Shown piece by piece: positions 1,317-36,320 of a DNA stretch of 38,399 bases. How positions within the stretch are numbered: the first letter of the stretch is position 1; every line of letters starts with the position of its first letter. Origin of the DNA: an uncultured Campylobacterales bacterium (GTDB lineage: Bacteria; Campylobacterota; Campylobacteria; Campylobacterales; JAADDG01); NCBI GenBank assembly GCA_964590185.1, contig CAZPVZ010000065.1, forward strand, positions 1 to 38,399. The letters are read 5' to 3'. A model generated the notes under the pieces. It was not told where the DNA came from and did not search any database. It was given only the letters and a program-made list of their open reading frames with translations. The position numbers were made by a program, and so were the translations under genes.

Positions 1317-1363
1317 AAACTTTTCCGTTTCGAATTTTTTACAAAGATTCTATCATAAAAAAT

Positions 1364-8381: not shown

Positions 8382-8506
8382 TAAACGTTCCCCCGAAAAC
8401 TGCCGATATCAAAAAAGGTAAAATATAATGTAAATATTATATTTAATAAAACCTAAATAGCAGTTTAGTTAAAATTTATTAAACTTTTTTACAGTAGGAT
8501 TTTATA

Positions 8507-9769: not shown

Positions 9770-9812
9770 CGATATATGAAACGATAAACGATTTTTTTTA
9801 TGAAGAAAAGAG

Positions 9813-18266: not shown

Positions 18267-21200
18267 TTAAAACATATTTTCGCTTCCGGGAGTTCCGTGA
18301 GCGGTGGCGTTGGATTCTCTCCAATTCTCTTTCAAAGAGTTGTCGCTATTTGGATTTAAAAGCTCCAAAGTGGCTCCGTTTCCGGAAGCGTCGGGCCAAC
18401 TTTCGTCATAAAATACGCTGTCTATCAAAATACCGTCTTTGTTATAGAGTCTGATAGCGTCCGACTTTTTGCCGAATCCGAAAGGAACGTCTCCTATATA
18501 ATTATCCACATCGGGAAAAAGAGAGGAGAATTTCTCGCTATCCTCGCATACGACAAGATAGTCCCTTGCGGGAAGAACCAAACCGTCCGGAAAAATAAAC
18601 TGATGAGAATCGTCGTCGTCTTTTAAAATCCATCCGCTTAAATCCACGTCCTCGTCGGAGTTGTTGTAAAGCTCGACCCAATCTCCCGTGTCGAAATCTT
18701 TAGCCGATTTGTAATTGAATTCGTTTATTACGATTTTAGGAGGATTGGCCAAAGTAAAAGAGGGCGACAAAGTGAGATTCGAATCCAAAACGACTTCTAT
18801 CCTATTTTCGTCGCTATCGTAACCTCCCCAGGAGAGAAGTTTGTATCCCTCGTCCGCAACCGCCTCCAAAACGACCTTTTGACCTTTAAAATATGTGCCG
18901 TTAAAATCGCCGAAAACTCTTATTCCGTCCACCTTTACGCCGCCGAATTTGGAAGAATTTATCTTCAAGGAAACGAGTTCGGCGTCTATCGAAAACTTTT
19001 CTCTAAGCTGTTTTACGATCACTCCGGGTCTTTCGTCGGCAAAATTTCTCATTTTTTCCAACTCGTTATACCAATCGTTTACGTCCGTATAATTGGTATA
19101 ATAACCGTTTACGTCCCCCTCAAGGTGAACCTCTTCCCATCTTGCGTAAGCTCTCGGAATCTCCGGTTCTATAACGGAAGCGAGTTCGTTTAAAATATTT
19201 TTTACTCTATCCGGTTTAAAAGTGATGTTTAGATGCGTCATAAATTTCTCTACGAACTTATCTTTAAAATTTTGATTTTTCAAAAGATTTCTTATTAGGA
19301 AAGTGGACCAAGGAGGATTCGGCCATCCCGGACCGTCGGAAGCGGTGGCGATATCTATCAAATTATACTCCACTCCGGCCACGCTCTCTCTTAAAGCGAA
19401 ACCGAAATCGGTATCGTATAAAATCCATCTCCAAACTCCGCTATCTTTTCTCTCCCTCCAATATCTTATATTGTTTCCCGGCCAATCCCAGTTGCCGAAA
19501 AACATCTCGGCAATTTCATAATCGATATACTCGTCTATATCTATTTTCGAAGCGACATAATTATAAGCGGCGTCGTCGGATAGATCGTGCTCTTTTATAA
19601 AGTCCATAAGCTCGTCGTAAGCCTCTTTATCTCCTTCCAAAACCTTTCTGTTATTTTCGAGAAGATCCACTTTTTTGACTTTGTGATGCTCTTTTAGATA
19701 AGCCTTGTTCGTTTTTTCTCTTATATTGTAAAGTCCCCAAAACTTTCCGTTTAAAAATACCAAAGCCGGCCTGTACGCCTGATGATCGATATCGGTAGTC
19801 TCTTTTATCAAAGTTTGCATAAAGGCGTCTCTTAACATGCTTTTGCCCCAATCGTTTCCGGAGTTTCTTAGTATGAAGTCTTCAAACTCGTCAATCTTTT
19901 CGTCTTTGAAAAGTTTATACTCAAGCTTATCGTTTCCGTACTTACTTTTCATTTTGATCGCAAACGACTTTTGGGGAACGGTTCTTGAACATTTTCCCAT
20001 TATTTCGACGCCCGCGTCGGTTTTAAAACCCAAACTTCCGTTATTCTCGTAAAATTCGACCGTAGCGGCCCTCTCCCAATCCTGAAAATAGTTGGCCATC
20101 TTCGGTCCGAAACATCCCCCGGAAGGAGCTCCGTTTTTCCCGACGGTATAAATGCCTATCTCGTCGTCAAACAAAAATTTGGGATCCACGGTTAAAGAGA
20201 CTACCGGCAAAGTGGAATTTTCGTCTATAAAATAGGTTTTAGTAACGACTTTGCTATCGAAAACCCCGTCTTTCACCCCTATCGCTCTAATAACGGTATT
20301 TTCCTTCAACACTATCGGAGATTCGTAAAGATAGGAATCCTTAGAAGGTATGGAACCGTCAAGAGTATAGTAAATCCTCTCTTGAGGATCTTCGGAAGTT
20401 AAAGCGACGGTAATTTCTCCTTTATAAAAACCTCCCTCTTTATCGAAAACCGGTTCGCCCGCTCTTTCTATCACTTTCATTCCGACTCCGTTGGGATCTT
20501 TCGGAGTGGGAACCATATAGGCAAATTCTCCCTTTTCGTCTCTTCCGTAAGAGATGTCGGCTTCTTGCTCTCTATATCTCAAATAATCCACCACGTCTCC
20601 GTCGGGATCGAACAAAACCGCCTCTTCTCCGCTTGAGGAGAGTTTAAAATCGGTATGAATCTCGTTTTTAACGACGTCTTCATCGTCCGCCCATATAAGC
20701 ATATACCCTTTTGCCGGTATCACCGTTCCGTCGGGTATTCGATACTTTTTCTCCCCTATTTTATCGCTTAGGAAATATCCGCTTAGATTCACGTCCCTAT
20801 CTTCGTTATTGAAAATCTCTATCCAATCGGAGAAATTAAAAAAATCTCCGTCATAGACCGTTTTCGTATTCGCGGCCATAACTTCGGTAATCTTAATATC
20901 CGCCGCGTAATCCCCCAAAAAGCTTTTGGTTATTCTTTTAAATTCCGGAGAATCCAAAAAAGCCTCTATGACGTACTCTCTCGTAGCCCCGTCGGAGAGC
21001 TTTTTCTCCCAAAACTTAAATCCCTCTTCGTCGGGCTCCCTTCCCATGAGAGTTCTGTAAACTACGGTCAAAAACTTCTTATCGTCGTAATTTTTCTCCG
21101 TAAACTCTTTGGAAAAGAAAAAACCTTTGGCTATGTCGCTTGCGCTTTTCCTATGAGTTTTCAGCTCCTTGTTCCAATACTCTATACCGGCCCCGTCGGC

Positions 21201-21707
21201 TCTTCTTCCCAAAACGAGATTATAAAATCTCTCTATGAAAGCCTCTCTTTCGTCATTCTTGTTATGAGCCAAAATTCCGAAATCTTCCTGACAAAGAGAA
21301 GTAAATTCGTCAGAAAGTGCAAAACCGTAAAAAATTTGATCTCTCAATTTTCCGTGATTTTCCAACTCATTAACCCAATAAGAGAGTCCGGTAGGCTCCG
21401 GTTCTCTATTTAATAAAGTAAGATAGGTTCTTCTAACGAACTCTTCGTCGCTAAGATTGGCGTCTTCAAACTCCTTGCTTCTGAAAAAATCCTTAGCGAC
21501 GCTCGTTGCGCTTTTATTTTCGAAAAGCAGCTGTTTTACCCAATAGTTAAAACCCGCACTATCGGGAGTTCTATTTAAAATATTTTCATAAAGCCTCGTA
21601 ACGAAAGCTTCAACCTTATCCGCCGAAGATTTCGCATGAAGATTTAAAACCAAAAAAACGGGTATTATTAGCAAAAAAAGATACCGTCTCAATCTTTCTG
21701 GATACAT
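18267..21707 (-). CDS. Large secreted DUF4214-repeat / lamin-tail-domain / CotH kinase-family protein
   Basis: 1146 aa with a signal peptide. Four DUF4214-type repeats (e.g. FVTRLYENILNRTPDSAGFNYWVKQL, FIERFYNLVLGRRADGAGIEYWNKEL). An N-proximal LTD (ITEVMAAN...DWIEIFNNEDRDVNLSGYFLSD). A chitobiase/Fn3-like segment (IYYTLDGSIPS). A CotH core (LRNSGNDWGKSMLRDAF, VFLNGKFWGLYNIREK). A C-terminal LTD (VINEFNY...DWVELYNNSDEDVDLSGWILKDDD). Confidence 0.8.
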   Translation of the reverse strand: MYPERLRRYLFLLIIPVFLVLNLHAKSSADKVEAFVTRLYENILNRTPDSAGFNYWVKQLLFENKSATSVAKDFFRSKEFEDANLSDEEFVRRTYLTLLNREPEPTGLSYWVNELENHGKLRDQIFYGFALSDEFTSLCQEDFGILAHNKNDEREAFIERFYNLVLGRRADGAGIEYWNKELKTHRKSASDIAKGFFFSKEFTEKNYDDKKFLTVVYRTLMGREPDEEGFKFWEKKLSDGATREYVIEAFLDSPEFKRITKSFLGDYAADIKITEVMAANTKTVYDGDFFNFSDWIEIFNNEDRDVNLSGYFLSDKIGEKKYRIPDGTVIPAKGYMLIWADDEDVVKNEIHTDFKLSSSGEEAVLFDPDGDVVDYLRYREQEADISYGRDEKGEFAYMVPTPKDPNGVGMKVIERAGEPVFDKEGGFYKGEITVALTSEDPQERIYYTLDGSIPSKDSYLYESPIVLKENTVIRAIGVKDGVFDSKVVTKTYFIDENSTLPVVSLTVDPKFLFDDEIGIYTVGKNGAPSGGCFGPKMANYFQDWERAATVEFYENNGSLGFKTDAGVEIMGKCSRTVPQKSFAIKMKSKYGNDKLEYKLFKDEKIDEFEDFILRNSGNDWGKSMLRDAFMQTLIKETTDIDHQAYRPALVFLNGKFWGLYNIREKTNKAYLKEHHKVKKVDLLENNRKVLEGDKEAYDELMDFIKEHDLSDDAAYNYVASKIDIDEYIDYEIAEMFFGNWDWPGNNIRYWRERKDSGVWRWILYDTDFGFALRESVAGVEYNLIDIATASDGPGWPNPPWSTFLIRNLLKNQNFKDKFVEKFMTHLNITFKPDRVKNILNELASVIEPEIPRAYARWEEVHLEGDVNGYYTNYTDVNDWYNELEKMRNFADERPGVIVKQLREKFSIDAELVSLKINSSKFGGVKVDGIRVFGDFNGTYFKGQKVVLEAVADEGYKLLSWGGYDSDENRIEVVLDSNLTLSPSFTLANPPKIVINEFNYKSAKDFDTGDWVELYNNSDEDVDLSGWILKDDDDSHQFIFPDGLVLPARDYLVVCEDSEKFSSLFPDVDNYIGDVPFGFGKKSDAIRLYNKDGILIDSVFYDESWPDASGNGATLELLNPNSDNSLKENWRESNATAHGTPGSENMF

Positions 21708-23318: not shown

Positions 23319-23756
23319 ATGGTTGAGTTTGCGAGCGCTTTTTTGATAGGATCTCTCGTAGCGTACCTTTTATATCTCAACATAAAAAAAATAACCGATA
23401 AATTGGATAGAGCCGAAAATCCTTCTTATAAAATATATTCAACCTTTGCGGCGAAGGTTGAAGAATACGTCGAAGAAATCAGGGATTCTATCGGAAATAA
23501 ATATCTTTTGAAAAACGAAAACGACCAAAAAGAGATAAAAGAGAAACTCTCCGAAATCGTTAGAGAACTGAAATTTTTCGAAACGGTATCGGTAAAAAGA
23601 ATGGAAAAAGAGGAAGCGGAAGAGAAACTTTTCGATATTCTTTCCGAACTCGATTCCATTTTGGAAAAAAATTTCGTAAACGGACGAGAAAAAGCGGACG
23701 AGCTTAGAGAAAAACTTCAAAAAAACTTTGAAGAGATAAAAAATGACGTCGAATAA
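23319..23756 (+). CDS. Hypothetical membrane-anchored coiled-coil protein
   Basis: 145 aa with an N-terminal TM (FASAFLIGSLVAYLLYL) followed by a Glu/Lys-rich helical region. Overlaps the next gene by 14 nt. Confidence 0.5.
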   Translation: MVEFASAFLIGSLVAYLLYLNIKKITDKLDRAENPSYKIYSTFAAKVEEYVEEIRDSIGNKYLLKNENDQKEIKEKLSEIVRELKFFETVSVKRMEKEEAEEKLFDILSELDSILEKNFVNGREKADELREKLQKNFEEIKNDVE

Positions 23757-24498
23757 CGATTCTCAACAAAGAAACAACATAATAGAGTTTTCAACGATAG
23801 AAACTTCCTGCACCTATCTGCCCGACAGAAGAATGAGGATGAGTTACAAATACATAAAAGAAGCCTCCTTCGAACTCAACTCCGACCTGACCGAGAGAGG
23901 ATGGAGAAGATTCGGAAAATATTACTCAAGGCCTTCCTGCGCGGCATGCAGCGAATGTTTGAATTTTAGAATAGACGCTTTCAATTTCAAATTCTCAAAA
24001 TCGGCAAGAAGAGTTCTTAAGAAAAACAAACATACTAAAATGTACGTACAAACCCCCACGACTACCTCTTCCCATATAAAACTACACGAAAAATATCACA
24101 AATTCATGTCCGAAAAAAAAGGATGGAAATACCATCCGATCTCGCCGGCCACTTATAACGAGCTCTATGTCGAAGGACACGGAAATTTCGGGAAAGAGGT
24201 CTTATATTTCATAGACGATAAACTCGTAGGAGTGGATTTTATAGACATATGCCGCGACGGAATCTCCGCGATCTACTTTTTCTACGATCCCGATTACGCA
24301 AAATACTCTTTAGGCAGATATTCGATATATCAGCAGATATTAATGGCGAAGGAGCGCGGATTAAGATGGATATATTTAGGATATTATGTAAAAGAGTGCG
24401 ACTCGCTAAACTATAAAGCCTCCTACAAACCCTCTCAGATACTTATAAACTCCCCATCTTTGGAAGAAGAGCCCATATGGGTGGATATCAAAGTTTAA
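23743..24498 (+). CDS. bpt: Arginyl-tRNA-protein transferase family protein (bacterial Bpt-type Asp/Glu leucyltransferase)
   Basis: 251 aa. It has the N-terminal CTYLPDRRMRMSY motif, a Cys cluster (SRPSCAACSEC) and a C-terminal YLGYYV motif typical of Ate/Bpt enzymes. Confidence 0.75.
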   Translation: MTSNNDSQQRNNIIEFSTIETSCTYLPDRRMRMSYKYIKEASFELNSDLTERGWRRFGKYYSRPSCAACSECLNFRIDAFNFKFSKSARRVLKKNKHTKMYVQTPTTTSSHIKLHEKYHKFMSEKKGWKYHPISPATYNELYVEGHGNFGKEVLYFIDDKLVGVDFIDICRDGISAIYFFYDPDYAKYSLGRYSIYQQILMAKERGLRWIYLGYYVKECDSLNYKASYKPSQILINSPSLEEEPIWVDIKV

Positions 24499-25504
24499 AA
24501 GGCGTTCTAACTTCCAAAACGAAATCGGGAGAATCGCTCGTTAATCCTATACCCAAAGAGACGTTTACGGCTCTGTCTTTACTAAGAGCCCAGCCGGCGC
24601 CTATTTTTAACTGTGCCACGTTCAAAGTGGAATTGGCCACTTTGGTCCTGTTTCCGTCAACGGTGGAATAACTCGAGAGAGTATAATCGTACTGAAACTG
24701 AGCGTTTACCGAAAAATTGTAAGAGATGGCGTATCCGAAACCGGCATTTAAAGTGATAGTATCTCCCGGTTCGACTTTCTCAAGATGTTTTCCGTTAACC
24801 ATCATATCCACGTCTTGATCGATGTTGTAAGAGTACGAAATCCCTCCGAAAACGACGCTCGGATCTATACTTTTTATAAGATTCACTCCGGCTTTTATCG
24901 AATAGTACCCCGTTCCCAAAGGAAGCTCGTTCTTCGGATCTATATCGTAAGGTCCCTGTCCCGTTTTTGATTTAAAGCTCAGATTTAAAATAACCGCGGG
25001 CCTGTTTAAAGTCTCTCTATAAATCTGATCGCTAATCGTAAAAGTAACGTCGCCGACTCCCCACTCGTCAACGAGATCCTCCTTATTCGTCTCGACTTTG
25101 GCTCTCTGGTCGTGTCTATAGATGAGAGGCACCGCAAACTCGGCTTGCAAAAAATCCGCAATTCCGTAACGCAATAAAATCACGTCCCCTATAATCTGTC
25201 TTTTTATGGACTCTATCCCAAACTGCCCCAAAGTCAAAAAAACGGGATCCAAAATGGCGAAACTGTCCAAAAATATCTGATTGGCCGAGTTGTAAGTGAA
25301 CTGAAAATCGTTCTCGAACTCGAAAACGCCTTTTTTTAACAATACGTAATCTCTTTGAAAATGTTCCAAAACTTCCTTAGGCTGGGACTCTTTCAAAACT
25401 TCGGCAAGCTTTTTGTTCACGCCGCCGCCTTGCGACGCTCCCTCAAAAAGAGTCAAAACCAGACAAAGACTCAAAATCCTCTTATGAAAAGGCGCGTTCT
25501 TCAT
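24488..25504 (-). CDS. Outer-membrane beta-barrel protein (transporter / MetA-pathway-of-phenol-degradation-like family), last gene of the fibre-like cluster
   Basis: 338 aa with a signal peptide (ILSLCLVLTLFEGASQG). A short charged helical segment is followed by alternating beta-strand patterns to the C-terminus. Sits 13 nt downstream of the C39 gene. Confidence 0.65.
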   Translation of the reverse strand: MKNAPFHKRILSLCLVLTLFEGASQGGGVNKKLAEVLKESQPKEVLEHFQRDYVLLKKGVFEFENDFQFTYNSANQIFLDSFAILDPVFLTLGQFGIESIKRQIIGDVILLRYGIADFLQAEFAVPLIYRHDQRAKVETNKEDLVDEWGVGDVTFTISDQIYRETLNRPAVILNLSFKSKTGQGPYDIDPKNELPLGTGYYSIKAGVNLIKSIDPSVVFGGISYSYNIDQDVDMMVNGKHLEKVEPGDTITLNAGFGYAISYNFSVNAQFQYDYTLSSYSTVDGNRTKVANSTLNVAQLKIGAGWALSKDRAVNVSLGIGLTSDSPDFVLEVRTPFKL

Positions 25505-25517
25505 AAAAATTCCTCTT

Positions 25518-26216
25518 TTAATGATCTAAAAAACTTCTAAAAGACGGCAAATTATATTCGAAAATATAATTTCTAAGCATGGTATTTCCGATCCACTTCA
25601 TATCTTCTTCGGTAAGAGCCAGCCTATTGACCCCTCTTCTTTTCCGCTCTATAATCAAAGCTATATGTTTATACCATATTTTATCAAATTCGTCTCTCGG
25701 AAGTATAGTGTTTCCAAGAGCAGGATCGGCTATAAAAACTCTTCCTTTATACAATCCTCTAAAAACTACGAAATGTTTATAGTTTCCTATCGTAATCGTA
25801 ACTATGGCGGGCTTTCCCATCTCCGCCAAAGAATCCAAATCGAGCTTGTATCCGTTGACTTTATATCCCAAAGCGTTGGAAAGCTTTTTTATATCGAGAA
25901 GCGAAAAACCTTTGTTTTGGATTATTTTCATTTTATTTCCGAATCTGAAAAGACCGTTTATGACTTGATCTTCGGTTAAAGGATCGTTCAAATAGTAGTT
26001 ATATATCGTCGCCGTTGCGGCCGAACCGCAACTAAAATCCATCTTCTGCCTCACGAGATGTTTAGAATTGACGCTTTTAGAAGTTTCAACATGAGGATAG
26101 ATTTTGAAAGAGCCGAATTTCAATCCTACTATAATGGGAACCTTAGAATACTCTTTAGACGAAAGAGTTAAGATTAAAAACGGCAATAAAAAAATAATTT
26201 TTACTATTTTATTCAT
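25518..26216 (-). CDS. Periplasmic (signal-peptide-bearing) C39-family cysteine peptidase
   Basis: ATG 26216 (MNKIVKIIFLLPFLILTLSS) is preferred over the listed GTG 26228. C39 catalytic motifs are intact: Gln/Cys in QKMDFSCGSAATATIYNYY, His in YKHFVVFRG, Asp in FIADPALG. No ABC-transporter domain is attached or adjacent. Confidence 0.8.
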   Translation of the reverse strand: MNKIVKIIFLLPFLILTLSSKEYSKVPIIVGLKFGSFKIYPHVETSKSVNSKHLVRQKMDFSCGSAATATIYNYYLNDPLTEDQVINGLFRFGNKMKIIQNKGFSLLDIKKLSNALGYKVNGYKLDLDSLAEMGKPAIVTITIGNYKHFVVFRGLYKGRVFIADPALGNTILPRDEFDKIWYKHIALIIERKRRGVNRLALTEEDMKWIGNTMLRNYIFEYNLPSFRSFLDH

Positions 26217-26231
26217 ACGCCCTACCACTTC

Positions 26232-26324
26232 CTACAACTTCTCTATCTTTTCGGAGACCTTAAAATAAAAAATAGCGGCTATAAAGCTTACAAGCGTCAA
26301 AAATAGAAAAGATAAAGGATCCAT
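26232..26324 (-). CDS. Unlisted 30-aa single-TM micro-ORF upstream of the C39 gene
   Basis: Hand translation gives MDPLSFLFLTLVSFIAAIFYFKVSEKIEKL. An AAAGGAAAAGAGG purine tract lies directly upstream of the ATG. The stop is 15 nt before the C39 ATG. Too short for the ORF track. Confidence 0.35.
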   Translation of the reverse strand: MDPLSFLFLTLVSFIAAIFYFKVSEKIEKL

Positions 26325-26378
26325 CCTCTTTTCCTTTAAACGAAAAAATCATTCTTTAATAAAAATTAGTTTATATAT

Positions 26379-26407
26379 TTGACCTTTTTAACTAATTTTG
26401 ATAAAAT
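26379..26407 (+). promoter_or_regulatory. Near-consensus sigma70-type promoter on the + strand inside a minus-strand operon
   Basis: TTGACC (26379-26384), a 17-nt spacer, then TAAAAT (26402-26407), with a TG at 26399-26400 (extended -10). Confidence 0.55.
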
Positions 26408-26413
26408 ATTATA

Positions 26414-26548
26414 TGAACATAGCTTATACAAACACAAAAACTCCTTTCTCCAGCTACCATCTTTTAGGAGTTTGGCGTAAAGTTATGTTCCTACCCCTTT
26501 TACGGCATTCAGCAACGACTTAACCGGTCGTTTTGCTGAATGTTTTTT
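26414..26548 (+). ncRNA. Candidate ~135-nt sRNA (cis-antisense to the operon intergenic region, with trans match to the start region of the major repeat gene)
   Basis: Bounded by the promoter at 26379-26407 and the intrinsic terminator at 26506-26548. It contains TCCAGCTACCATCTTT (26449-26464), identical to 28695-28710. That makes it complementary to the mRNA segment AAAGAUGGUAGCUGGA spanning the AUG of the 557-aa protein gene. Confidence 0.35.
26506..26548 (+). terminator. Rho-independent terminator oriented on the + strand
   Basis: Arms CATTCAGCAACGAC and GTCGTTTTGCTGAATG form 10 bp, a 2-nt bulge and 4 bp around a 7-nt loop, followed by T6 (26543-26548). On the minus strand the same hairpin lacks a U-tail. 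Confidence 0.6.
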
Positions 26549-26958
26549 CAAAACGGCTTCAAAGCGGATTGAAGCTGATTGTTTATATTTATTCCTCCCG
26601 TTATTTTCGAATTCATAACGAATATTATATTAATCGGCACATTTACGGCTGAATTTACCGCATTGATAGGCACGAACGCATCTTTTTGAGCCAGACCGCT
26701 AACCATAACCGAATCAACTAAATTCGTAGGCAGATCGGCCGAAAATTTAAAAGCGTTGGAACTTATCGTATGAGTCACCGGCAAAGTATTAAACGCCAGC
26801 GAGCTTTTTATCGCATCATCCATCACTTGATAGTTTAAATTGAATCCCTGTGCCGAAATATCCGAAAGCTCTTCGTCTTTTACAACTTCTATTCCGCCGG
26901 CCGTCGAATATACGGACAATATAGCCGATATAAAGAGTAAATAGAGCGCTTTTTTCAT
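26548..26958 (-). CDS. Small secreted protein carrying one copy of the fibre-repeat core (candidate minor subunit/nucleator)
   Basis: 136 aa with signal peptide MKKALYLLFISAILSVYSTAGG. It shares the motif EELSDISAQGF with the 557-aa protein. SGLAQKDAFVPINAVNSAVNVPINII aligns to the repeat core NGxAQxxASxLxIxNxAxSAVNIGQNI. C-terminal residue is Phe. Confidence 0.75.
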   Translation of the reverse strand: MKKALYLLFISAILSVYSTAGGIEVVKDEELSDISAQGFNLNYQVMDDAIKSSLAFNTLPVTHTISSNAFKFSADLPTNLVDSVMVSGLAQKDAFVPINAVNSAVNVPINIIFVMNSKITGGININNQLQSALKPF

Positions 26959-27008
26959 CTTTTTTCCTTTAAAACATCGTTTTAACGCAAGTTAAAACAA
27001 TGTCTCAA

Positions 27009-27032
27009 GAAAGAGGAGAAGCCTCCTCTCCC
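27009..27032 (-). terminator. Stable hairpin immediately after the major repeat gene stop (partial terminator/attenuator or mRNA stabiliser)
   Basis: Minus-strand RNA GGGAGAGGAG-GCUU-CUCCUCUUUC forms a 10-bp stem including two G.U pairs. It starts right after the TAA and is followed by UUGAG... A second perfect 8-bp palindrome (GTTTTAAC-TTGC-GTTAAAAC) lies at 26979-26998. Confidence 0.45.
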
Positions 27033-28706
27033 TTAAAAATTGGTAGCGGTTTGAACCGCGGTTTGAGAAATACTCCAATTGGTTGCGGTTTGGATATTCG
27101 CTATATTCAACCCGTAGTTAACCGCACTTCCGGCGGTATTGCCCAAAATAAGGCTGGACGTTCCGGTTTGAGCGTCTATTAATTGAACTTTTCCGTTATT
27201 ATTGGCTTGTTTTTCGATATTGCCGTTATTTACTACGTCTTGATTATGAGTTCCGCAATTCTCCGCGGTTTGCGTATTGGTTTGAGTCAATACGGAAGCG
27301 GTTGTCGGATTGCCGCTAACGTCCAAAATATTGGCCGCGCTGTTAACCGCGGAATCGGCGCTATTGTGAGAAGCCAAAGAAGCCAAATCTTTTTGGGCGT
27401 TATTGATTTGAACCGCTCCGTTATTGTTTTGGCCGTTATCGGCGCTTCCGTTTACGATTTTTTGAGGAGCGGTGTATTTGTTAACCGCGTTTTGGGTGTT
27501 GGCTTGATCTATGAAATTAAGATTTCCGGCGTTTTCTATCGAAGCTATGTTTTGACCTATGTTAACCGCGGAGTTTGCGGTATTGGTAAAAGCCATGCCG
27601 GAAACTCCGTTTTGAGCTCCGTTTACTTGAACCGCCGCATTGTTGTTGTTGGCGTTGGAAGCTTTCTTAGCGGTTGAAACATATTGATACTCGTACTCTC
27701 CGTTACCGTTGAAAGCTTGTTGAGTATTTGTTTGAGAAACTTTTATATTTCCGGTTACGTCCTTAGCCTGCATGATATTTTGACCCACGTTCTCAGCGGA
27801 ATAAGAAGTATTTGTGATGGAGAGTCCGTTGGCCTCGTCCTGAGCGTTACCGTTAGCCTGTACGGAACCGCTATTGTTTTGTTGCTGTAAAGTATTCTCT
27901 CCGTTTTTAACGGTTTGCTCGAGCATCGTTTTGGAGTGAGTGGCTTTTTGATCGTTTTCCTGCCACAATTTAGGATTCTCCGTATCGGTCGCATACAAGA
28001 TGTTCTGTCCGATGTTTTTAGCCGAAGAAGCGGCATTATCGATAGACAACGCGCTCGCTTTGCTTTGAGCGTCGCCGTTTAATTGAACGGCCGCGTTATT
28101 GTTGCTTTGCTCGTTAACGGTATCTTCGCTCGCTATATGCTGAATTAGAGCGTTAGTATTGGACGCCTGTTGCGAATTTTTTTGTCTTAAGACCAGATTT
28201 TTGGATTTATCGACCGTCAAAATATTTTGTCCCTCGTTGATTCCGGATTTCGCCGCGTTAACCATAACCGCCGCGGAAGCTTCGCTTTGAGCCTTATCGC
28301 TTAGATTGACGGCTCCGTTATCGTTAACCTGCTTATGCAAAGGACCTTTGTTCGTAGTCGTCTGAACGGCGTTTTTGCCGTTTTTCGCAATTTGGCAATT
28401 CTTTTGAGTAAGTTCTCCGCTTCCGTTTACCAAATTGGCAACGTTTTGATTGGCGTTTATAGCCGAAGAGGAACTGTTTACGATCTCCATTCCTTGAGCC
28501 TCTTTTTGAGAGGTTCCTCTAAGCTCCAAAGCTTCGTTGTTGTTAAGCTGATCGTTAGCCGTACCTCCGTTGTAAATATTTTGAATACCTTGCGCGCTAA
28601 CGTCCCCCAACTCGTCTTCGGATAAAGTGCTCACGCCCGCAATCGCCGCCGATGAAACAACCATAGCAACGAGAGCGGAAATCATGATCCGTTTTCCAGC
28701 TACCAT
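27033..28706 (-). CDS. Secreted Asn/Gln/Ala/Ser/Gly-rich protein with seven imperfect 73-77-aa repeats (candidate major fibre/amyloid-like subunit)
   Basis: 557 aa with signal peptide MVAGKRIMISALVAMVVSSAAIAG, an AGGAG RBS and the post-signal motif LSEDELGDVSAQG. Repeat cores start at aa 55, 128, 202, 277, 354, 427 and 502. Only 2 Cys. The C-terminus is TATNF. Confidence 0.85.
   Translation of the reverse strand: MVAGKRIMISALVAMVVSSAAIAGVSTLSEDELGDVSAQGIQNIYNGGTANDQLNNNEALELRGTSQKEAQGMEIVNSSSSAINANQNVANLVNGSGELTQKNCQIAKNGKNAVQTTTNKGPLHKQVNDNGAVNLSDKAQSEASAAVMVNAAKSGINEGQNILTVDKSKNLVLRQKNSQQASNTNALIQHIASEDTVNEQSNNNAAVQLNGDAQSKASALSIDNAASSAKNIGQNILYATDTENPKLWQENDQKATHSKTMLEQTVKNGENTLQQQNNSGSVQANGNAQDEANGLSITNTSYSAENVGQNIMQAKDVTGNIKVSQTNTQQAFNGNGEYEYQYVSTAKKASNANNNNAAVQVNGAQNGVSGMAFTNTANSAVNIGQNIASIENAGNLNFIDQANTQNAVNKYTAPQKIVNGSADNGQNNNGAVQINNAQKDLASLASHNSADSAVNSAANILDVSGNPTTASVLTQTNTQTAENCGTHNQDVVNNGNIEKQANNNGKVQLIDAQTGTSSLILGNTAGSAVNYGLNIANIQTATNWSISQTAVQTATNF
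27036..28544 (-). repeat. Seven tandem coding repeats (protein-level, diverged at DNA level)
   Basis: Aligned cores:
- NNNEALELRGTSQKEAQGMEIVNSSSSAINANQNVANL
- NDNGAVNLSDKAQSEASAAVMVNAAKSGINEGQNILTV
- NNNAAVQLNGDAQSKASALSIDNAASSAKNIGQNILYA
- NNSGSVQANGNAQDEANGLSITNTSYSAENVGQNIMQA
- NNNAAVQVNGAQNGVSGMAFTNTANSAVNIGQNIASI
- NNNGAVQINNAQKDLASLASHNSADSAVNSAANILDV
- NNNGKVQLIDAQTGTSSLILGNTAGSAVNYGLNIANI. Confidence 0.85.
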
Positions 28707-28882
28707 CTTTAACTCCTTTTATTAAGATTGAAAAAGTCAACTTTACTTTCCGATATAGAAATTATCCCATACAATAATGCAGATTTTGTGCAGAAAACCC
28801 GCATTTTTTAAAATTAATAATAATTTTTTTTATTTCTACACTTATTAATTAATTTTATTTTAAGTTATTAAATAATTTTAAC

Positions 28883-29530
28883 TTATTCTATAATATAACC
28901 CACGCCTTTTATGTTTTTGATAACCTTATAACCTATTTTTTTATGAATATCCCTGATATGGCTCGCTAAAGTCTTATAGTTTTTTATATCCTCGTCCCAA
29001 ACGTATTCGCTTAGCGTCTCTCTTCCGACTATCCTGCCTCTATTCTTAACCAAAAAATAGAAAATTTTATGCTGTTTGTTAGTTAATTTAACTATCCTTT
29101 CCCCGCAATAAAGTTCCCTCTTGGCCAAATTGTACTTAATATTCGAGCTTAAAGATATCTCCTTATTCGAGTGAGTGCATCTTAAAACGTTTTTTATCCT
29201 CACCATCAACTCTTCTATATCGAACGGCTTTTTTATATAGTCATAACTTCCCAAATAAAAACATCTCTTAATATAACTAACGTCCTTCTTATTGCTTATA
29301 ACGATGGAAGGCGTATTTATGGCGTTTGCCTGCATATATTCGAGCATTTCGAAAATATCGCTCTTTTTTATATCCAGATCCAAAATCAAAATATCGAAAT
29401 CGTGCAAATTTTCATGTAAAAGCATCTCATCCATATCTTCAAACTTCTTCACATAAAAATCTTGCATCTCAAAGTAGAAAGGTATCCTTCTTTTATAAAA
29501 AACGTCGTCCGATAAAAGAGCGATTTTCAT
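28883..29530 (-). CDS. OmpR/PhoB-family response regulator (receiver + winged-helix), no cognate kinase adjacent
   Basis: 215 aa. Receiver residues are present (LLSDD acidic pair, ILILDLD phospho-Asp, IVIS, DYIKKPF Lys). The C-terminal winged helix has LTNKQHKIFYFLV, REtLSEYVW and IKNIKGVGYIIE. The gene is visibly more AT-rich than its neighbours. Confidence 0.85.
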   Translation of the reverse strand: MKIALLSDDVFYKRRIPFYFEMQDFYVKKFEDMDEMLLHENLHDFDILILDLDIKKSDIFEMLEYMQANAINTPSIVISNKKDVSYIKRCFYLGSYDYIKKPFDIEELMVRIKNVLRCTHSNKEISLSSNIKYNLAKRELYCGERIVKLTNKQHKIFYFLVKNRGRIVGRETLSEYVWDEDIKNYKTLASHIRDIHKKIGYKVIKNIKGVGYIIE

Positions 29531-29676
29531 ACCTTGCGCTTTAAAGTTTTATTTTTTATCGCCGATATAAAGTAATTATAACCTATGAAGCTAAAAAGTA
29601 TAAATAAATAGTCAAATTATTTACTTAATAAAGTTTTGTTGAAGAAAATGGGTATGAAGGTAACAAAAAGGAAACC

Positions 29677-29706
29677 TTTCAGAAAAGAGAAGCCTCTTTT
29701 CTGAAA
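29677..29706 (-). terminator. Rho-independent (bidirectional-looking) terminator after the lipase gene
   Basis: A perfect 13-bp stem (TTTCAGAAAAGAG / CTCTTTTCTGAAA) with a 4-nt loop. The minus-strand tail is GGTTTCCTTTTT and the plus-strand tail is AAATATTTTT. Confidence 0.65.
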
Positions 29707-29732
29707 AATATTTTTACTTTTAAATGTATTTT

Positions 29733-30926
29733 TTACTTAAGAGAAGCGAACCACGAAGAAGCCGTCATATAAGCCGGACCGGCGCATTCGACATGATCGG
29801 AGCCTTCCATCGTAACGAGCTCCACGTTCAAAGAGCCGTTCATTACGAAATTATCGAAAGCCTCTTCGGAATTGAAATAGGGAACTATCGGATCGTCTTT
29901 ACAATGAATCAGTTTCATAGGCGTCTTAGGCGCCCAATTGGATACGGAGTTTTTTATAAGCGCCTCTTTTAGCGCATACTCTCCGTTTCCGAAATATGAA
30001 GCTATGAAATCGGGTCTGAAAAGCTCCGCCGTAACGTTCGTAAGCTGAGTTAAAATTTCGTCTCCCGGAGTATTGCCGTCAAAAAGGTACGGAAGTTTAG
30101 AAGCGAAAGGCTCGTTTATAATCTCATCCAATCTGTTCCATCCGTAATATTCGTCATAAGCGTAAACGACGTAAGCTATAAAAGGAGAGTAGTTTAAAAA
30201 ACTTTTTATTAGAGTGAAATCCGCCGTTCTTTTAAGATCGTAAGGACCCGCCATCGGAGCGGCGGCCGTTACTTCAATCTCGGGATGCTCCTCTTCTATC
30301 TTTTTCAAAGCGGCCATAGTTACGTAGCCTCCTTCGGAATACCCGGAAAGGAAAAGTTTTCCGCTCAAAGGAATACCGTTTGTGCGGCAAGCTTTTCGAA
30401 CCGCTTTTATCATATCGATAACGGCGTTTGCGGAAGGCTCATCTATCAAATAGGGATGAACCTTATCTTTGCTCGCGCCGAAACCTATGTAATCGGGCAT
30501 CGCGAGAACGAATCCGTTTATGGCGCTCATCAAGATAACGCTCGCGTTTAGAGGATTGTTGGAAGGAGCCTCTTTGTCGGTAAATATTGTTCCGTGCTGA
30601 TCGCTAACGAGAGGCAAGGGAGAATCCGTACCTAAAGGAACCGCCAAAAGACCCGACGCGTTTATCAGATTGCCGTATTTATCCACCGTCTTATAAATCA
30701 GCTTAAAAACTTCTATTCCGAAAACTATCGGAGATTCTATTCCCATATCCTCAAGTATCTTTTTCATCTCGTCCCGATCATAAGAGGCGGTTTTGGCAAG
30801 ACTCACAACGTCCCCCGGATGCATGACCAAATCATCCGCTCCTCCGGCGTCTCCTCCTCCGCCGCATCCCGAAAAGGAAAAAACCAAAAACGCGGAAACG
30901 AAAACCAAAGCCAATCTCTTAAACAT
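29733..30926 (-). CDS. Lipoprotein alpha/beta-hydrolase (secretory lipase/esterase-like)
   Basis: 397 aa. Lipobox VFSFSGC followed by a Gly-rich linker. Nucleophile elbow GYSEGG. Conserved His near the C-terminus (GSDHVEC). Confidence 0.75.
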   Translation of the reverse strand: MFKRLALVFVSAFLVFSFSGCGGGGDAGGADDLVMHPGDVVSLAKTASYDRDEMKKILEDMGIESPIVFGIEVFKLIYKTVDKYGNLINASGLLAVPLGTDSPLPLVSDQHGTIFTDKEAPSNNPLNASVILMSAINGFVLAMPDYIGFGASKDKVHPYLIDEPSANAVIDMIKAVRKACRTNGIPLSGKLFLSGYSEGGYVTMAALKKIEEEHPEIEVTAAAPMAGPYDLKRTADFTLIKSFLNYSPFIAYVVYAYDEYYGWNRLDEIINEPFASKLPYLFDGNTPGDEILTQLTNVTAELFRPDFIASYFGNGEYALKEALIKNSVSNWAPKTPMKLIHCKDDPIVPYFNSEEAFDNFVMNGSLNVELVTMEGSDHVECAGPAYMTASSWFASLK

Positions 30927-35571: not shown

Positions 35572-36320
35572 TAAAAAAACGTCCTTTTCAAGATATCGGA
35601 CTCTCCTATGTTGCAAGAGTAGTATCTGAGCACGAAAGGAGAGATTACGCCGGATACTCTTATCTCTATCATTTTAATATTCGAATCCTCTCCGGCGGGT
35701 TTAAAAGTATCGGCAAAATTGAAATTTATGTTTTGCGCGCTGTAATCGGCATTGTCGCTTACGTATCCCACGGTAACGTTAAGATCGAAATTGTCCCTGT
35801 TTAAATAATCAAGATCCGTTCCCTCCTGATTTACCAAAGAGGTGACGGCCTCTCCGTTAAAATCGTCCACGTCGTTGGGATTTGTAAGATTTACTTCCGA
35901 AATGTTCGGATAAGTCGGAGAATCGAACATTCTTCTCCTTCCGTCTCCCACTATCTGCCCCTCCAAACCCCCGTTCGGGAAAAATACCGAAAACCAGTTC
36001 CAAAAAAATATGCAAGCAAGATTCAACGGGAAAGGATAGGAGCTACAAACCGAAGAATCGAACCTCTGAAGCTCGCTATCGGAATTTGAAGTATCGAGTA
36101 TGTAAACCTTTCCCGTAACGGGATCCAAACTGTTTTCGTCCCATCTGTAAGTAGTTATGTTTTGAATTTTCGTCTTAGCCATCAAAACGCTCTCTTGCAT
36201 CGTGGAAAACTCGTCGCTTTTCGAAGAGCTCTCGAGTAAAATCGGAATGCTCATGAAAGCGATGCCTATAACCACTATCGAAACGACCAATTCTATGAAA
36301 GTAAAGCCTTTCCTTACCAT
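35571..36320 (-). CDS. Type IV pilin/pseudopilin-like protein (prepilin-type N-terminal domain)
   Basis: 249 aa with the canonical MVRKGFTFIELVVSIVVIGIAF motif. Its start overlaps the stop of the upstream large gene by 7 nt. Confidence 0.75.
   Translation of the reverse strand: MVRKGFTFIELVVSIVVIGIAFMSIPILLESSSKSDEFSTMQESVLMAKTKIQNITTYRWDENSLDPVTGKVYILDTSNSDSELQRFDSSVCSSYPFPLNLACIFFWNWFSVFFPNGGLEGQIVGDGRRRMFDSPTYPNISEVNLTNPNDVDDFNGEAVTSLVNQEGTDLDYLNRDNFDLNVTVGYVSDNADYSAQNINFNFADTFKPAGEDSNIKMIEIRVSGVISPFVLRYYSCNIGESDILKRTFF

What the first reader, a model, noticed from the sequence alone, without database searches (positions are those of the whole stretch)
24488..29530. Candidate novel Fap/curli-like extracellular fibre (functional-amyloid-type) system
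Six co-directional minus-strand genes are separated by short gaps:
- OmpR-type response regulator (28883-29530), then a 176-nt gap.
- 557-aa Sec-signal protein built from seven Asn/Gln/Ala/Ser/Gly-rich repeats (27033-28706), then a 74-nt gap.
- 136-aa Sec-signal protein with one copy of the same repeat core (26548-26958), then a 223-nt gap.
- 30-aa TM micro-ORF, then a 15-nt gap.
- C39 cysteine peptidase with its own signal peptide and an intact Cys/His/Asp triad (25518-26216), then a 13-nt gap.
- 338-aa OM beta-barrel (24488-25504).

No ABC exporter or membrane-fusion protein is present, so this is not a bacteriocin export cassette.

The parts are a multi-repeat major subunit, a small related subunit, a free periplasmic C39 peptidase and a dedicated OM barrel. 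This parallels the Pseudomonas fap operon (FapC, FapB, FapD, FapF). Conceptually it also parallels curli, which has a dedicated regulator.

The repeat period (73-77 aa) and consensus (NNNxAVQxNGxAQxxASxLxIxNxAxSAVNIGQNI) do not match what I recall of FapC or CsgA repeats. I cannot assign either structural protein to a named family.
Basis: partly seen in the sequence, partly recalled or inferred. Interest (0 to 1): 0.9.

Follow-up and report, generated by a model that had tools for sequence, protein, structure and literature searches.

The report
Fap-like fibre export system, new cargo
A vent bacterium carries an undescribed relative of the Pseudomonas Fap amyloid-export machinery that probably exports a new repeat-built all-beta surface protein, and whose cargo has a clear cleavage-type leader that may show what this class of periplasmic protease cuts.

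Summary
All six minus-strand genes are present at the stated coordinates. The barrel is a true FapF homologue (PDB 5O65, E=5e-45). The peptidase is a free, signal-peptide-bearing C39 related to FilB and FapD. Both score far below the equivalog cut-offs, and they form a separate clade only 23-31% (barrel) and 33-43% (peptidase) identical to the Fap, Fil and Cupriavidus types.

The 557-aa and 136-aa proteins match no Pfam or NCBIfam family. That includes the FapB, FapC, FapE and FilA models. The repeat unit shows no similarity to FapC, CsgA or FilA.

AlphaFold models the 557-aa protein as a confident all-beta repeat structure (pLDDT 90) with no PDB neighbour. The small protein is predicted disordered.

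The order repeat protein, small protein, C39, barrel recurs in Campylobacterota, Aquificota, Syntrophorhabdia and a Pseudomonadota MAG.

New here: both cargo proteins carry, directly after the Sec signal, a 16-17-residue leader in the canonical double-glycine register, ending A-[Q/K/R]-G. Similar leaders sit beside periplasmic C39 genes in the Fil, Fap (FapE) and other loci.

Verdict: a new variant of the Fap/Fil kind. Fibre or amyloid formation and leader cleavage are inferred, not shown.

The parts
28883..29530 (-). OmpR/PhoB-type response regulator (215 aa), the likely lineage-specific regulator of the cluster
   Evidence: Pfam Response_reg E=6.9e-15 plus Trans_reg_C E=2.9e-14. An orthologue lies directly upstream of the repeat gene in L004 and L005, and about 2.6 kb upstream in L007. 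It is absent from the Aquificota and delta loci.
27033..28706 (-). Major cargo: a 557-aa secreted repeat protein made of a Sec signal, a leader and seven ~75-aa Asn/Gln/Ala/Ser-rich repeats
   Evidence: ORF, repeats. No Pfam, NCBIfam or PDB sequence match. AF2 pLDDT 90.1, pTM 0.88, all-beta from residue 40. No significant Foldseek PDB neighbour. Only 33 homologues among the candidates scored in a 5.8-billion-sequence database.
28587..28637 (-). Leader/propeptide of the 557-aa protein (residues 24-40, GVSTLSEDELGDVSAQG), the proposed C39 recognition and cleavage element
   Evidence: The motif is conserved in 39 unique repeat-protein N-termini. With the invariant Gly as position 0, they show V/I at -4, L/M at -7, E/D at -8, S/T at -11, L/I at -12, A at -2 and Q/K/R at -1. 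The AF2 model is disordered over residues 1-38 and the fold starts at residue 40.
27036..28550 (-). Seven tandem repeat units (residues 53-557), consensus NNNGAVQLNGxAQxxASxLxxxNxAxSAVNxGQNI...QxNxQxAxN
   Evidence: There are about six predicted strands per repeat. The repeat number ranges from 2 to 16 in orthologues.
27003..27038 (-). Terminator-like hairpin of 16 pairs overlapping the stop codon of the repeat gene, a possible attenuator that sets the ratio of major to minor products
   Evidence: Consensus scan only. Function not shown.
26548..26958 (-). Small cargo or accessory subunit (136 aa): Sec signal, the same leader (GIEVVKDEELSDISAQG), a variable spacer, and a conserved C-terminal module SG-AQ-AFVPINAVNSAVNVPINI-GGININN
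   Evidence: Orthologues are 32-48% identical in other phyla. In an alignment of 20 sequences, L31, S35, A36, Q37, G38, F39 and the C-terminal module are invariant. Weak similarity to the repeat core, E=0.0014. AF2 predicts disorder as a monomer, pLDDT 46. An exhaustive search finds only 53 representative clusters in 1.84 billion.
26845..26898 (-). Leader of the small protein (residues 21-38)
   Evidence: 53 unique small-protein leaders share the register seen in the repeat proteins.
26232..26324 (-). 30-aa single-TM micro-ORF (MDPLSFLFLTLVSFIAAIFYFKVSEKIEKL), probably a real lineage-specific micro-protein of unknown role
   Evidence: The peptide is conserved in the same gap of L004 and L005 even though the DNA has diverged. 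No counterpart in other lineages.
25518..26216 (-). Free-standing periplasmic C39 cysteine peptidase (232 aa from the ATG) with its own signal peptide, a member of the FapD/FilB family
   Evidence: PF03412 E=5.9e-22. FilB 2.2e-49 and FapD 2.3e-34, both below cut-off. The closest solved structure is the double-glycine protease LahT150, 6MPZ, at 4.8e-12. Q57, C63, H148 and D164 are invariant.
24488..25504 (-). FapF-family outer-membrane secretion barrel (338 aa) without FapF's N-terminal coiled-coil
   Evidence: NCBIfam FapF E=7.5e-40, matching model positions 98-418 of 420, and FilC 5.3e-39. PDB FapF 5O65 E=5.4e-45 over chain residues 26-333 of 334. Its length of 338 aa compares with 398-490 aa for FilC, FapF and the Cupriavidus barrel.

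Best explanation
The cluster encodes a two-step, Sec-dependent outer-membrane export system of the Fap/Fil type, dedicated to a new repeat-built cargo.

Proposed mechanism (steps 1-6 are inferred; the supporting observations are noted):
1. The 557-aa repeat protein and the 136-aa protein cross the inner membrane through Sec.
2. Signal peptidase removal leaves a 16-17-residue N-terminal propeptide. It has the hydrophobic and acidic register of a double-glycine leader, but ends in A-[Q/K/R]-G instead of GG.
3. The periplasmic C39 peptidase recognises this propeptide and cleaves at or next to the invariant Gly. This probably licenses engagement with the barrel, or is coupled to it.
4. The unfolded chain threads through the FapF-type barrel.
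5. Outside the cell it folds into an elongated all-beta repeat structure. That structure either stacks head-to-tail into fibres or forms a long surface rod that contributes to adhesion or biofilm matrix.
6. The small protein, which is disordered alone and carries one repeat-like module, acts as a minor subunit (nucleator, cap or cell anchor) in the manner of FapE, FapB or CsgB.

An OmpR-type regulator controls the cluster in this lineage. Other lineages use c-di-GMP-linked regulators.

Shown here: homology of the machinery, conservation of the gene set and the leader, and a confident beta fold.
Inferred: the cleavage, the export route of the cargo, and fibre formation.
For: -
- FapD is periplasmic and its catalytic Cys is required for FapC secretion through FapF in Pseudomonas (PMC5557850).
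- The order repeat protein, (accessory), small protein, C39, barrel recurs in 19 of the 26 barrel loci found, plus Nitrosophilus and Syntrophorhabdaceae, across four phyla. C39 lies next to the barrel in 23 of 26.
- The barrels are 43-64% identical within the clade.
- The leader is invariant at A(-2), [QKR](-1) and G(0). V/I at -4, L/M at -7, E/D at -8, S/T at -11, L/V at -12 and I/L at -15 occur in 92 unique cargo N-termini.
- A strict form of the motif occurs in only 2 of 2142 other ORFs in these loci. Both of those lie inside clusters, next to the repeat genes.
- The propeptide length matches the 15-18 aa of double-glycine leaders (PMC10233263).
- AF2 gives pLDDT 90 with disorder confined to residues 1-38, so the fold begins at the proposed processing site.
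- Leader-like motifs sit next to periplasmic C39 genes in FilA, Aeromonas FapE, Cupriavidus, Indioceanicola, Polymorphobacter and Photobacterium. This fits the mass-spectrometry evidence that FapE is the one N-terminally processed Fap protein.
- The context fits a matrix role. An EPS cluster lies in the window and next to the L003 repeat genes. GGDEF or PilZ regulators sit in or beside the cluster in three lineages.
Against: - There is no experimental evidence for cleavage, secretion or fibres.
- The -1 residue (Q/K/R) is bulky, unlike the Gly, Ala or Ser that characterised C39 enzymes accept. The exact scissile bond is therefore uncertain (before or after the invariant Gly), and cleavage itself is an assumption.
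- AF2 models a stable monomer, which is equally compatible with a non-polymerising adhesin.
- Foldseek finds no amyloid-subunit neighbour; CsgA 8C50 appears only at E=2.7.
- Similarity between the small protein and the repeat unit is marginal.
- Three delta-proteobacterial loci have the barrel without neighbouring C39 or repeat genes, and two Hydrogenothermaceae loci lack a detectable repeat gene nearby.
- The cross-family leader comparison rests on one sequence per system and a loose pattern that also gives noise hits in GC-rich DNA.
Confidence: 0.65

Rival explanations
1. The machinery is the same, but the product is a monomeric beta-rod surface adhesin or coat protein. It would be exported and folded like an autotransporter passenger whose barrel is encoded separately, and would not be a polymerising or amyloid-type fibre.
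For: AF2 gives a confident self-contained monomer fold. The weak Foldseek hits are monomeric or trimeric beta-helices such as tailspikes, Ag43 and pertactin. The repeat number varies from 2 to 16, as in adhesins. FapF is described as an autotransporter-like 12-stranded barrel.
Against: CsgA and FapC are also confidently modelled as solenoid monomers yet polymerise (established knowledge; review PMC12822426). A co-conserved small subunit with a repeat-like module, disordered on its own, suggests templated assembly. The nearest homologous systems make fibres or pili.
Confidence: 0.3
2. The conserved N-terminal motif is a targeting signal for the barrel or a chaperone, like the N22 segment of CsgA, and is retained in the mature protein. 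The C39 peptidase would act on another target, for example only the small protein or the barrel itself.
For: The dipeptide is not GG, GA or GS. Rouse et al. proposed FapE and/or FapF, not the major subunit, as FapD targets. The canonical FapB and FapC examined here lack such a leader.
Against: The motif reproduces the whole double-glycine leader register rather than only a patch. It sits exactly between the signal peptide and the first modelled strand. The closest solved relative of the peptidase is a double-glycine leader protease. Both cargo classes carry it.
Confidence: 0.2
3. A bacteriocin or peptide-export cassette that uses a C39 leader protease.
For: A C39 domain and a leader-like motif are present.
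Against: The peptidase is free-standing with a signal peptide and is not fused to an ABC transporter. No ABC or membrane-fusion gene was found among the window ORFs scanned or in the related loci. The cargo is 557-1279 aa of Asn/Gln-rich repeats behind Sec signals. The partner is a FapF-type barrel.
Confidence: 0.02

Closest known systems
Pseudomonas Fap functional-amyloid system (fapABCDEF; FapF structure PDB 5O65/5O67/5O68)
   Same: - A homologous outer-membrane barrel, aligned across the plug and 12-strand region (E=5e-45).
- A homologous periplasmic, signal-peptide-bearing C39 peptidase.
- Sec-exported Asn/Gln-rich repeat cargo plus a smaller related subunit.
- Peptidase and barrel genes adjacent to each other.
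- FapE of Aeromonas carries a leader-like ELAHLRG motif after its signal peptide.
   Different: - The cargo is unrelated to FapB, FapC or FapE by HMM and hhalign.
- There are 7 (range 2-16) repeats of about 75 aa, against an almost universal three short repeats in FapB and FapC (PMC12822426).
- No FapA or FapE genes.
- The barrel lacks the N-terminal coiled-coil.
- The leader is present on the major subunit as well.
- Barrel identity to FapF is only 27% and peptidase identity to FapD 39%.
- The hosts are Campylobacterota, Aquificota and Syntrophorhabdia, which published Fap surveys do not report.
Acinetobacter Fil putative pilus system (filABCDEF; NCBIfam NF050077-NF050081, NF033645)
   Same: The best family hit for the peptidase is FilB (E=2.2e-49), and the barrel hits FilC (5.3e-39). 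FilA, the presumed subunit, also has a Sec signal followed by MDDAALSAATGQ|DG. That is the same register, with Gln at -1.
   Different: - No FilA/DUF6160, FilD (FadL-type), FilE or FilF homologues.
- Scores are far below the Fil cut-offs (168 against 475, and 135 against 630).
- FilC has a low-complexity N-terminal extension of about 100 aa that is absent here.
Double-glycine leader / C39 peptidase-containing ABC transporters (PCATs; LahT150 6MPZ, PCAT1 4RY2, ComA)
   Same: The peptidase fold and the catalytic Gln, Cys, His and Asp residues are shared. The leader length of 16-17 aa and the -4, -7, -8, -11, -12 and -15 register are also shared.
   Different: The peptidase is periplasmic and not fused to an ABC transporter. 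The leader lies behind a Sec signal rather than at the extreme N-terminus. GG is replaced by A-[Q/K/R](-G). The cargo is a large structural protein, not a peptide.
Curli (CsgA/CsgB with CsgG/E/F)
   Same: Only the concept is shared: a repeat-built Asn/Gln-rich major subunit, a small minor subunit, a dedicated outer-membrane channel and a dedicated regulator.
   Different: There is no homology. No Csg family hits for any product, and the repeat unit against CsgA gives hhalign E=0.26. The channel is a FapF-type barrel rather than a CsgG lipoprotein nonamer.

Membership tests
Fap system (fapABCDEF) | FapF outer-membrane transporter | tested here: inconclusive
   The homology is clear: NCBIfam NF058560 E=7.5e-40, and PDB 5O65 E=5.4e-45 over the whole crystal construct. 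But the score is 137 bits against an equivalog cut-off of 700, and identity to Aeromonas FapF is 27%. It is a homologue, not an equivalog.
Fap system (fapABCDEF) | N-terminal periplasmic coiled-coil of FapF | tested here: not met
   FapF model positions 1-97 are unmatched. The protein is 338 aa with only about 28 residues between the signal peptide and the aligned region. The Aeromonas and Cupriavidus barrels (416 and 490 aa) have such a segment.
Fap system (fapABCDEF) | FapD periplasmic C39 peptidase | tested here: inconclusive
   NF058616 E=2.3e-34, 118.6 bits against a cut-off of 330. It has its own signal peptide and intact catalytic residues. It is a homologue in a separate clade, 39% identical to Aeromonas FapD.
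Fap system (fapABCDEF) | FapB and FapC subunits with three imperfect Fap repeats | tested here: not met
   No hit of the 557-aa or 136-aa proteins to NF058557 or NF058558 at E<=1, although those models recognise the Aeromonas FapB and FapC. hhalign of the repeat unit against FapC gives E=0.41. Seven 75-aa repeats replace the three short ones.
Fap system (fapABCDEF) | FapE and FapA accessory proteins | tested here: not met
   No hit to NF058559. hhalign of the small protein against Aeromonas FapE gives E=0.36, and only the leader segment aligns. No FapA-like gene is present. Other lineages carry an unrelated SFGxGG accessory gene.
Acinetobacter Fil system (filABCDEF) | FilB peptidase and FilC barrel | tested here: inconclusive
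   FilB E=2.2e-49 (168 bits against a cut-off of 475) and FilC E=5.3e-39 (135 against 630). Identity is 37% and 26%.
Acinetobacter Fil system (filABCDEF) | FilA (DUF6160) subunit, FilD FadL-type porin, FilE, FilF | tested here: not met
   None of the six products hits these models, although the models recognise the A. baumannii locus. hhalign of the repeat unit against FilA gives E=0.81.
Double-glycine leader peptides | A 15-18-aa leader with conserved hydrophobic positions (-4, -7, -12, -15) that ends in GG, GA or GS and is cleaved by a C39 peptidase | tested here: inconclusive
   The length (16-17 aa after the predicted signal-peptidase site) and the full register are met in 92 unique sequences. 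The terminal dipeptide is A-[Q/K/R] followed by an invariant Gly. Cleavage cannot be tested here. The register rule comes from established knowledge, and the length and GG/GA rule from PMC10233263.
Peptidase-containing ABC transporter (bacteriocin export) | C39 domain fused to an ABC transporter, with a membrane-fusion partner | tested here: not met
   The protein is 232 aa with a signal peptide and only weak partial hits to PCAT models. No ABC or MFP gene was found among the window ORFs scanned or in L001 and L002.
Curli | CsgA/CsgB repeats and the CsgG/E/F secretion proteins | tested here: not met
   No Csg family hits for the six products. hhalign against E. coli CsgA, whose sequence I supplied from memory, gives E=0.26.
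Functional amyloid (generic) | Extracellular cross-beta fibrils that resist SDS or formic acid and bind ThT or Congo red | not testable with these tools
   Only indirect support is available: Asn/Gln/Ala/Ser-rich repeats, a confident repetitive all-beta model, and homologous export machinery.

The most novel reading that the evidence does not exclude
Periplasmic C39 peptidases of the FapD/FilB family generally recognise a double-glycine-type propeptide placed directly behind a Sec signal peptide, a 'tandem signal' ending in [G/A]-[G/Q/K/R]. This clade, where every cargo protein carries the motif in textbook register, would reveal the long-sought substrate rule for FapD. Under this reading the 75-aa-repeat protein is also the subunit of a previously unknown class of extracellular beta-solenoid (amyloid-type) fibre, used by thermophilic vent chemolithoautotrophs (Aquificota, Campylobacterota) for attachment or matrix building.
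Probability: 0.3. Interest if true: 0.8.

Novelty: new variant of a known kind. Interest (0 to 1): 0.62.

Why it matters
1. The substrate of FapD, which is essential for Pseudomonas amyloid secretion, was stated to be unknown, and Fap proteins were said to lack canonical C39 sites (PMC5557850). This clade offers a clean, conserved candidate recognition sequence on every cargo protein. Comparable motifs occur in FapE, FilA and other systems. That makes the question directly testable with peptides and purified enzyme.

2. The FapF/FapD machinery is shown to be a modular export platform used with unrelated cargo families. It occurs outside Pseudomonadota, in Aquificota and Campylobacterota. Published Fap surveys, which are anchored on the FapB/C repeat, could not detect this.

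3. The cargo is a new family with no Pfam entry, a confident but structurally unmatched repeat fold, and thermophile hosts. It is a candidate heat-stable fibre or adhesin material.

4. Cultured hosts exist (Nitrosophilus alvini and N. kaiyonis, Persephonella, Hydrogenivirga), so experiments are feasible.

Tried and rejected
- Pfam and NCBIfam scans of the 557-aa, 136-aa and 30-aa products gave nothing meaningful.
- PDB sequence search with the 557-aa protein gave no hit at E<=1.
- Foldseek against the PDB gave no hit at E<=0.001. The best was the P22 tailspike at E=0.066 with TM about 0.07, so no fold assignment beyond a 'repetitive all-beta rod' is possible.
- AF2 of the small protein gave a low-confidence model (pLDDT 46), so I did not fold-search it.
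- hhalign of the repeat unit against FapC, CsgA and FilA, and of the small protein against FapE and the Cupriavidus 162-aa protein, was non-significant in every case.
- I looked for a remnant of the SFGxGG accessory gene in the window and found none.
- The homologue search with the C39 profile listed only the top 120 hits, all from this clade, so it did not return named FapD or FilB entries. I obtained those loci instead from chromosomes mislabelled as plasmids in the plasmid collection.
- An Rfam scan of 24000-30000 found only a sub-threshold RefA9 match (E=0.14), taken as chance. No riboswitch was found.
- Promoter-like sites were not enriched over shuffles.
- Literature searches for DUF6160, FapF-like or FapD-like systems and periplasmic double-glycine processing found no description of this system.
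- The bacteriocin-cassette reading was considered and rejected.


Full report
OBSERVATION. The peptidase gene can start at the ATG at 26216 (232 aa, as gene callers chose in relatives) or at an upstream GTG at 26228. The 557-aa protein has seven repeats starting at residues 53, 127, 202, 277, 354, 427 and 502, a period of 73-77 aa. About 63% of its residues are N, A, Q, S, T or G. GC content is unremarkable across the cluster.

MACHINERY. The barrel matches Pfam PF13557 (E=4.2e-9). More tellingly, it matches NCBIfam FapF (E=7.5e-40, model positions 98-418 of 420) and FilC (E=5.3e-39). A profile of three orthologues matches the crystallised FapF construct (5O65) at E=5.4e-45 over chain residues 26-333 of 334. 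It is therefore a genuine FapF-family transporter. It lacks FapF's N-terminal coiled-coil: it is 338 aa against 398-490 aa for the FilC, FapF and Cupriavidus barrels.

The peptidase is PF03412 (E=5.9e-22), with FilB E=2.2e-49 and FapD E=2.3e-34. It has its own signal peptide and invariant Gln57, Cys63, His148 and Asp164. Its closest solved relative is the double-glycine leader protease LahT150, 6MPZ (E=4.8e-12).

All four family scores are far below the equivalog cut-offs. In pairwise comparison this clade is 43-64% identical internally. It is only 23-31% (barrel) and 33-43% (peptidase) identical to Aeromonas Fap, Acinetobacter Fil and a Cupriavidus system, and those three are equally distant from one another. 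It is therefore a separate branch of one superfamily. [quoted passage not shown]

CARGO. Neither the 557-aa nor the 136-aa protein matches any Pfam or NCBIfam model at E<=1. The negative is meaningful. The library holds FapB, FapC and FapE models and FilA, FilD, FilE and FilF models, and these recognise the Aeromonas and Acinetobacter proteins. The repeat unit shows no profile similarity to FapC (E=0.41), CsgA (0.26) or FilA (0.81).

The family is rare. A word-indexed search of 5.8 billion sequences found 33 relatives of the large protein among the candidates scored, none with a Pfam domain. An exhaustive HMM search of 1.84 billion cluster representatives with the small-protein profile found 53 at E<=1e-3.

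AlphaFold2 with the 33-sequence alignment gives pLDDT 90.1 and pTM 0.88. The model is all-beta from residue 40 to the C-terminus, with about six strands per repeat. Only residues 1-38 are disordered. Foldseek against the PDB finds nothing significant (best E=0.066, TM about 0.07). The weak hits are all beta-helix or solenoid proteins, including a CsgA at E=2.7.

The small protein is predicted disordered on its own (pLDDT 46). Its conserved C-terminal module (SG-AQ-AFVPINAVNSAVNVPINI) aligns weakly with the repeat core (hhalign E=0.0014, 34 columns).

CONSERVATION. The closest named relatives are Campylobacterota ('Epsilonproteobacteria') MAGs (84-92% identical) and Nitrosophilus alvini (37%). 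In N. alvini and in a Syntrophorhabdaceae MAG the repeat gene or genes lie with small-protein, C39 and barrel genes on one strand.

A scan of one genome per GTDB species with the barrel alignment returned 26 loci. They come from Campylobacterota, many Aquificota, Syntrophorhabdales and other 'delta' MAGs, and one Pseudomonadota MAG. Annotating all loci with my own HMMs shows the order repeat protein (1-2 genes, 2-16 repeats), accessory, small protein, C39, barrel. C39 is next to the barrel in 23 of 26 loci, and a repeat gene is present in 19 of 26. Most of the exceptions are truncated contigs. Three delta MAG loci have the barrel alone, and two Hydrogenothermaceae loci have accessory, C39, GGDEF and barrel without a nearby repeat gene.

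The accessory gene (about 95-126 aa, motif SFGxGGMxxYKVVDN, no Pfam family) is absent from the window and its closest relatives. Those instead share a conserved 30-aa single-TM micro-ORF between the small-protein and C39 genes.

Cultured hosts of the clade's peptidase include Nitrosophilus alvini and N. kaiyonis, Persephonella and Hydrogenivirga.

The OmpR-type regulator accompanies the cluster only in Campylobacterota (L004, L005, L007). Elsewhere the neighbours are a PAS-GGDEF protein plus a Cache histidine kinase, a sigma-54 activator with a PilZ domain, GerE-type regulators, or a GGDEF gene inserted between C39 and the barrel. This is the kind of regulation typical of matrix and adhesion functions. 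An exopolysaccharide cluster lies at about 0.5-14.7 kb in the window, and another lies beside the repeat genes of L003.

Directly after the predicted signal peptides, the large and small proteins read GVSTLSEDELGDVSAQG|IQNIY and GIEVVKDEELSDISAQG|FNLNY. I collected 39 unique repeat-protein and 53 unique small-protein N-termini and numbered the invariant Gly as 0. The pattern is as follows:
- Position -1 is Q/K/R in 92 of 92.
- Position -2 is Ala in 90 of 92.
- Position -4 is V/I in 88 of 92.
- Position -7 is L/M in 91 of 92.
- Position -8 is E/D.
- Position -10 is D/E.
- Position -11 is S/T.
- Position -12 is L/V/I.
- Position -15 is I/L.

This is the register of double-glycine leaders, which have hydrophobic residues at -4, -7, -12 and -15 with Glu at -8 and Ser at -11 (established knowledge). 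It holds if the scissile bond lies between [Q/K/R] and Gly, so that 'GG' is replaced by A-[Q/K/R]. Cleavage after the invariant Gly, with a one-residue longer spacing, is the alternative. The propeptide is 16-17 residues long, within the 15-18 typical of such leaders (PMC10233263).

A strict form of the motif occurs in only 2 of 2142 other ORFs in the loci. Both are small proteins sitting inside clusters next to repeat genes, and they look like a third leader-bearing class (EEMEAVFARG|W). The AF2 model's ordered fold begins exactly at the end of the motif.

GENERALISATION. Rouse et al. showed that FapD is periplasmic and that its catalytic Cys is needed for FapC secretion. [quoted passage not shown]

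I fetched other loci with a free C39 and found secreted neighbours whose signal peptide is followed by the same register:
- A. baumannii FilA: MDDAALSAATGQ|DG.
- Aeromonas FapE: LADGELAHLRGR|YV.
- Cupriavidus: KLDDVRGG|AE.
- Indioceanicola: ASVDELDRSVGR|LL.
- Polymorphobacter: VSDAELGEVAGK|TD.
- Photobacterium: LTDDEMSSLRGG|FV.

None was found in the Croceicoccus locus or in a Vibrio locus that appears linked to a type I secretion system.

This rests on one sequence per system and a loose pattern that also gives noise in GC-rich DNA, so it is a lead and not a result. It does suggest that a 'Sec signal plus double-glycine-type propeptide' is the common substrate mark of this peptidase family. 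In canonical Fap only FapE appears to carry it. Here the major subunit does too.

MECHANISM (inferred). The proposed sequence is Sec export, then signal-peptide removal, then recognition and cleavage of the propeptide by the periplasmic C39 peptidase, probably coupled to hand-over to the barrel. The unfolded chain would then translocate through the FapF-type pore and fold outside the cell into a long all-beta repeat structure. The small, intrinsically disordered, single-module protein would act as a minor subunit (nucleator, cap or anchor). A strong hairpin overlapping the stop codon of the repeat gene (27003-27038) could attenuate transcription of the downstream genes (consensus match only).

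Whether the product polymerises into amyloid-type fibres or remains a monomeric rod adhesin cannot be decided in silico.

COMPARISON AND NOVELTY. The system works like Fap and Fil and shares two homologous core components with them. It fails the membership tests for either family on cargo, accessory genes and barrel architecture.

The most comprehensive Fap surveys anchor on the FapB/C repeat and report Fap operons in Pseudomonadota, Desulfobacterota, Nitrospirota and Bacillota. They find an almost universal three repeats, and would not detect this system (PMC12822426). I found no description of it in the searchable literature. Database names are only 'C39 family peptidase', 'beta strand repeat-containing protein' or 'hypothetical protein'.

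I class it as a new variant of a known kind. Interest is moderate to high. It is not categorically new, but it extends the FapF/FapD platform to new phyla and a new cargo fold, and it offers a concrete, testable answer to what FapD-type peptidases cut.

Noticed in passing
window 26232-26324 (-); L004 ~3480-3570; L005 ~9100-9185: The 30-aa ORF is conserved as a hydrophobic peptide with a charged tail (...ISKKIEKL*) in the same small-protein-to-C39 gap of two related Campylobacterota MAGs, although the DNA has diverged. It is probably a real single-TM micro-protein specific to the lineage that lacks the SFGxGG accessory gene.
   Followed up: partly
L001 7205-7549 and 10763-11047; L002 5583-5945; L003 4393-4746; 18 loci in all: A conserved accessory protein of about 95-126 aa (SFGxGGMxxYKVVDNxCYVYTL...YQVCGD), usually with a signal peptide, lies between the repeat and small-protein genes in most lineages. 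It matches no Pfam family and is absent from the window. It may be a periplasmic chaperone.
   Followed up: partly
L009 9099-9986; L026 1201-2085: In the Hydrogenothermaceae loci a GGDEF diguanylate cyclase gene is inserted between the C39 and barrel genes (PF00990, E=2.7e-43). No repeat or small-protein gene is detectable nearby.
   Followed up: partly
L002 7596-7916; L023 12282-12668: A third class of small cluster-encoded proteins carries a leader-like EEM(E/D)A(V/I)FA(R/K)G motif. It has no similarity to the repeat or small-protein families. L002 also has a duplicated module with two C39 genes.
   Followed up: no
window ~486-14671: An exopolysaccharide-type cluster: two asparagine synthases, two GT4 glycosyltransferases, a polysaccharide deacetylase, a Wzz/GNVR chain-length/tyrosine-kinase protein and a Pel9A-like beta-helix protein. 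L003 likewise has fn3, Pel9A-like, deacetylase and GT4 genes next to its repeat genes.
   Followed up: partly
window 18267-21707 (-): A 1146-aa protein that combines a CotH kinase domain, four DUF4214 repeats, Fn3-associated/CHB_HEX_C modules and two lamin-tail domains. It is an unusual large, probably secreted, multidomain protein.
   Followed up: no
window 36314-38248 (-): A 644-aa protein with a weak DUF6701 match (E=1.1e-7). This adds another surface-related gene to the neighbourhood.
   Followed up: no
window 24488-24498: The barrel gene and the convergent arginyl-tRNA-protein transferase (Ate) gene, 23743-24498 on the + strand, overlap by 11 nt at their 3' ends.
   Followed up: no
window 29674-29709: A 13-16-bp hairpin with T-runs on both strands lies between the response-regulator gene and the upstream secretory-lipase-like lipoprotein gene (29733-30926). 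It looks like a bidirectional terminator that isolates the cluster's transcription unit.
   Followed up: no
L003 5456-9950: The repeat gene of this 360-kb contig is split into at least five overlapping ORFs. These are likely frameshifts from a long-read assembly or a pseudogene. No C39 or barrel gene lies within 8 kb.
   Followed up: no
L031 (Cupriavidus metallidurans CH34 megaplasmid 61349-77795): A further uncharacterised Fap-like variant. It has a 511-aa Gly/Ala/Asn-rich secreted protein, a 162-aa and a 456-aa protein with ...RGG motifs, a C39 peptidase, and a 490-aa FapF-like barrel with a coiled-coil. None of the cargo proteins matches an NCBIfam or Pfam family.
   Followed up: partly
plasmid collection hits H1, H16 (NZ_CP104448.1, NZ_AP026896.1): Records of 4.09 Mb and 4.94 Mb labelled 'plasmid' in the plasmid collection are evidently chromosomes. 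They were useful here as sources of the fil and fap loci, but they are mislabelled.
   Followed up: no
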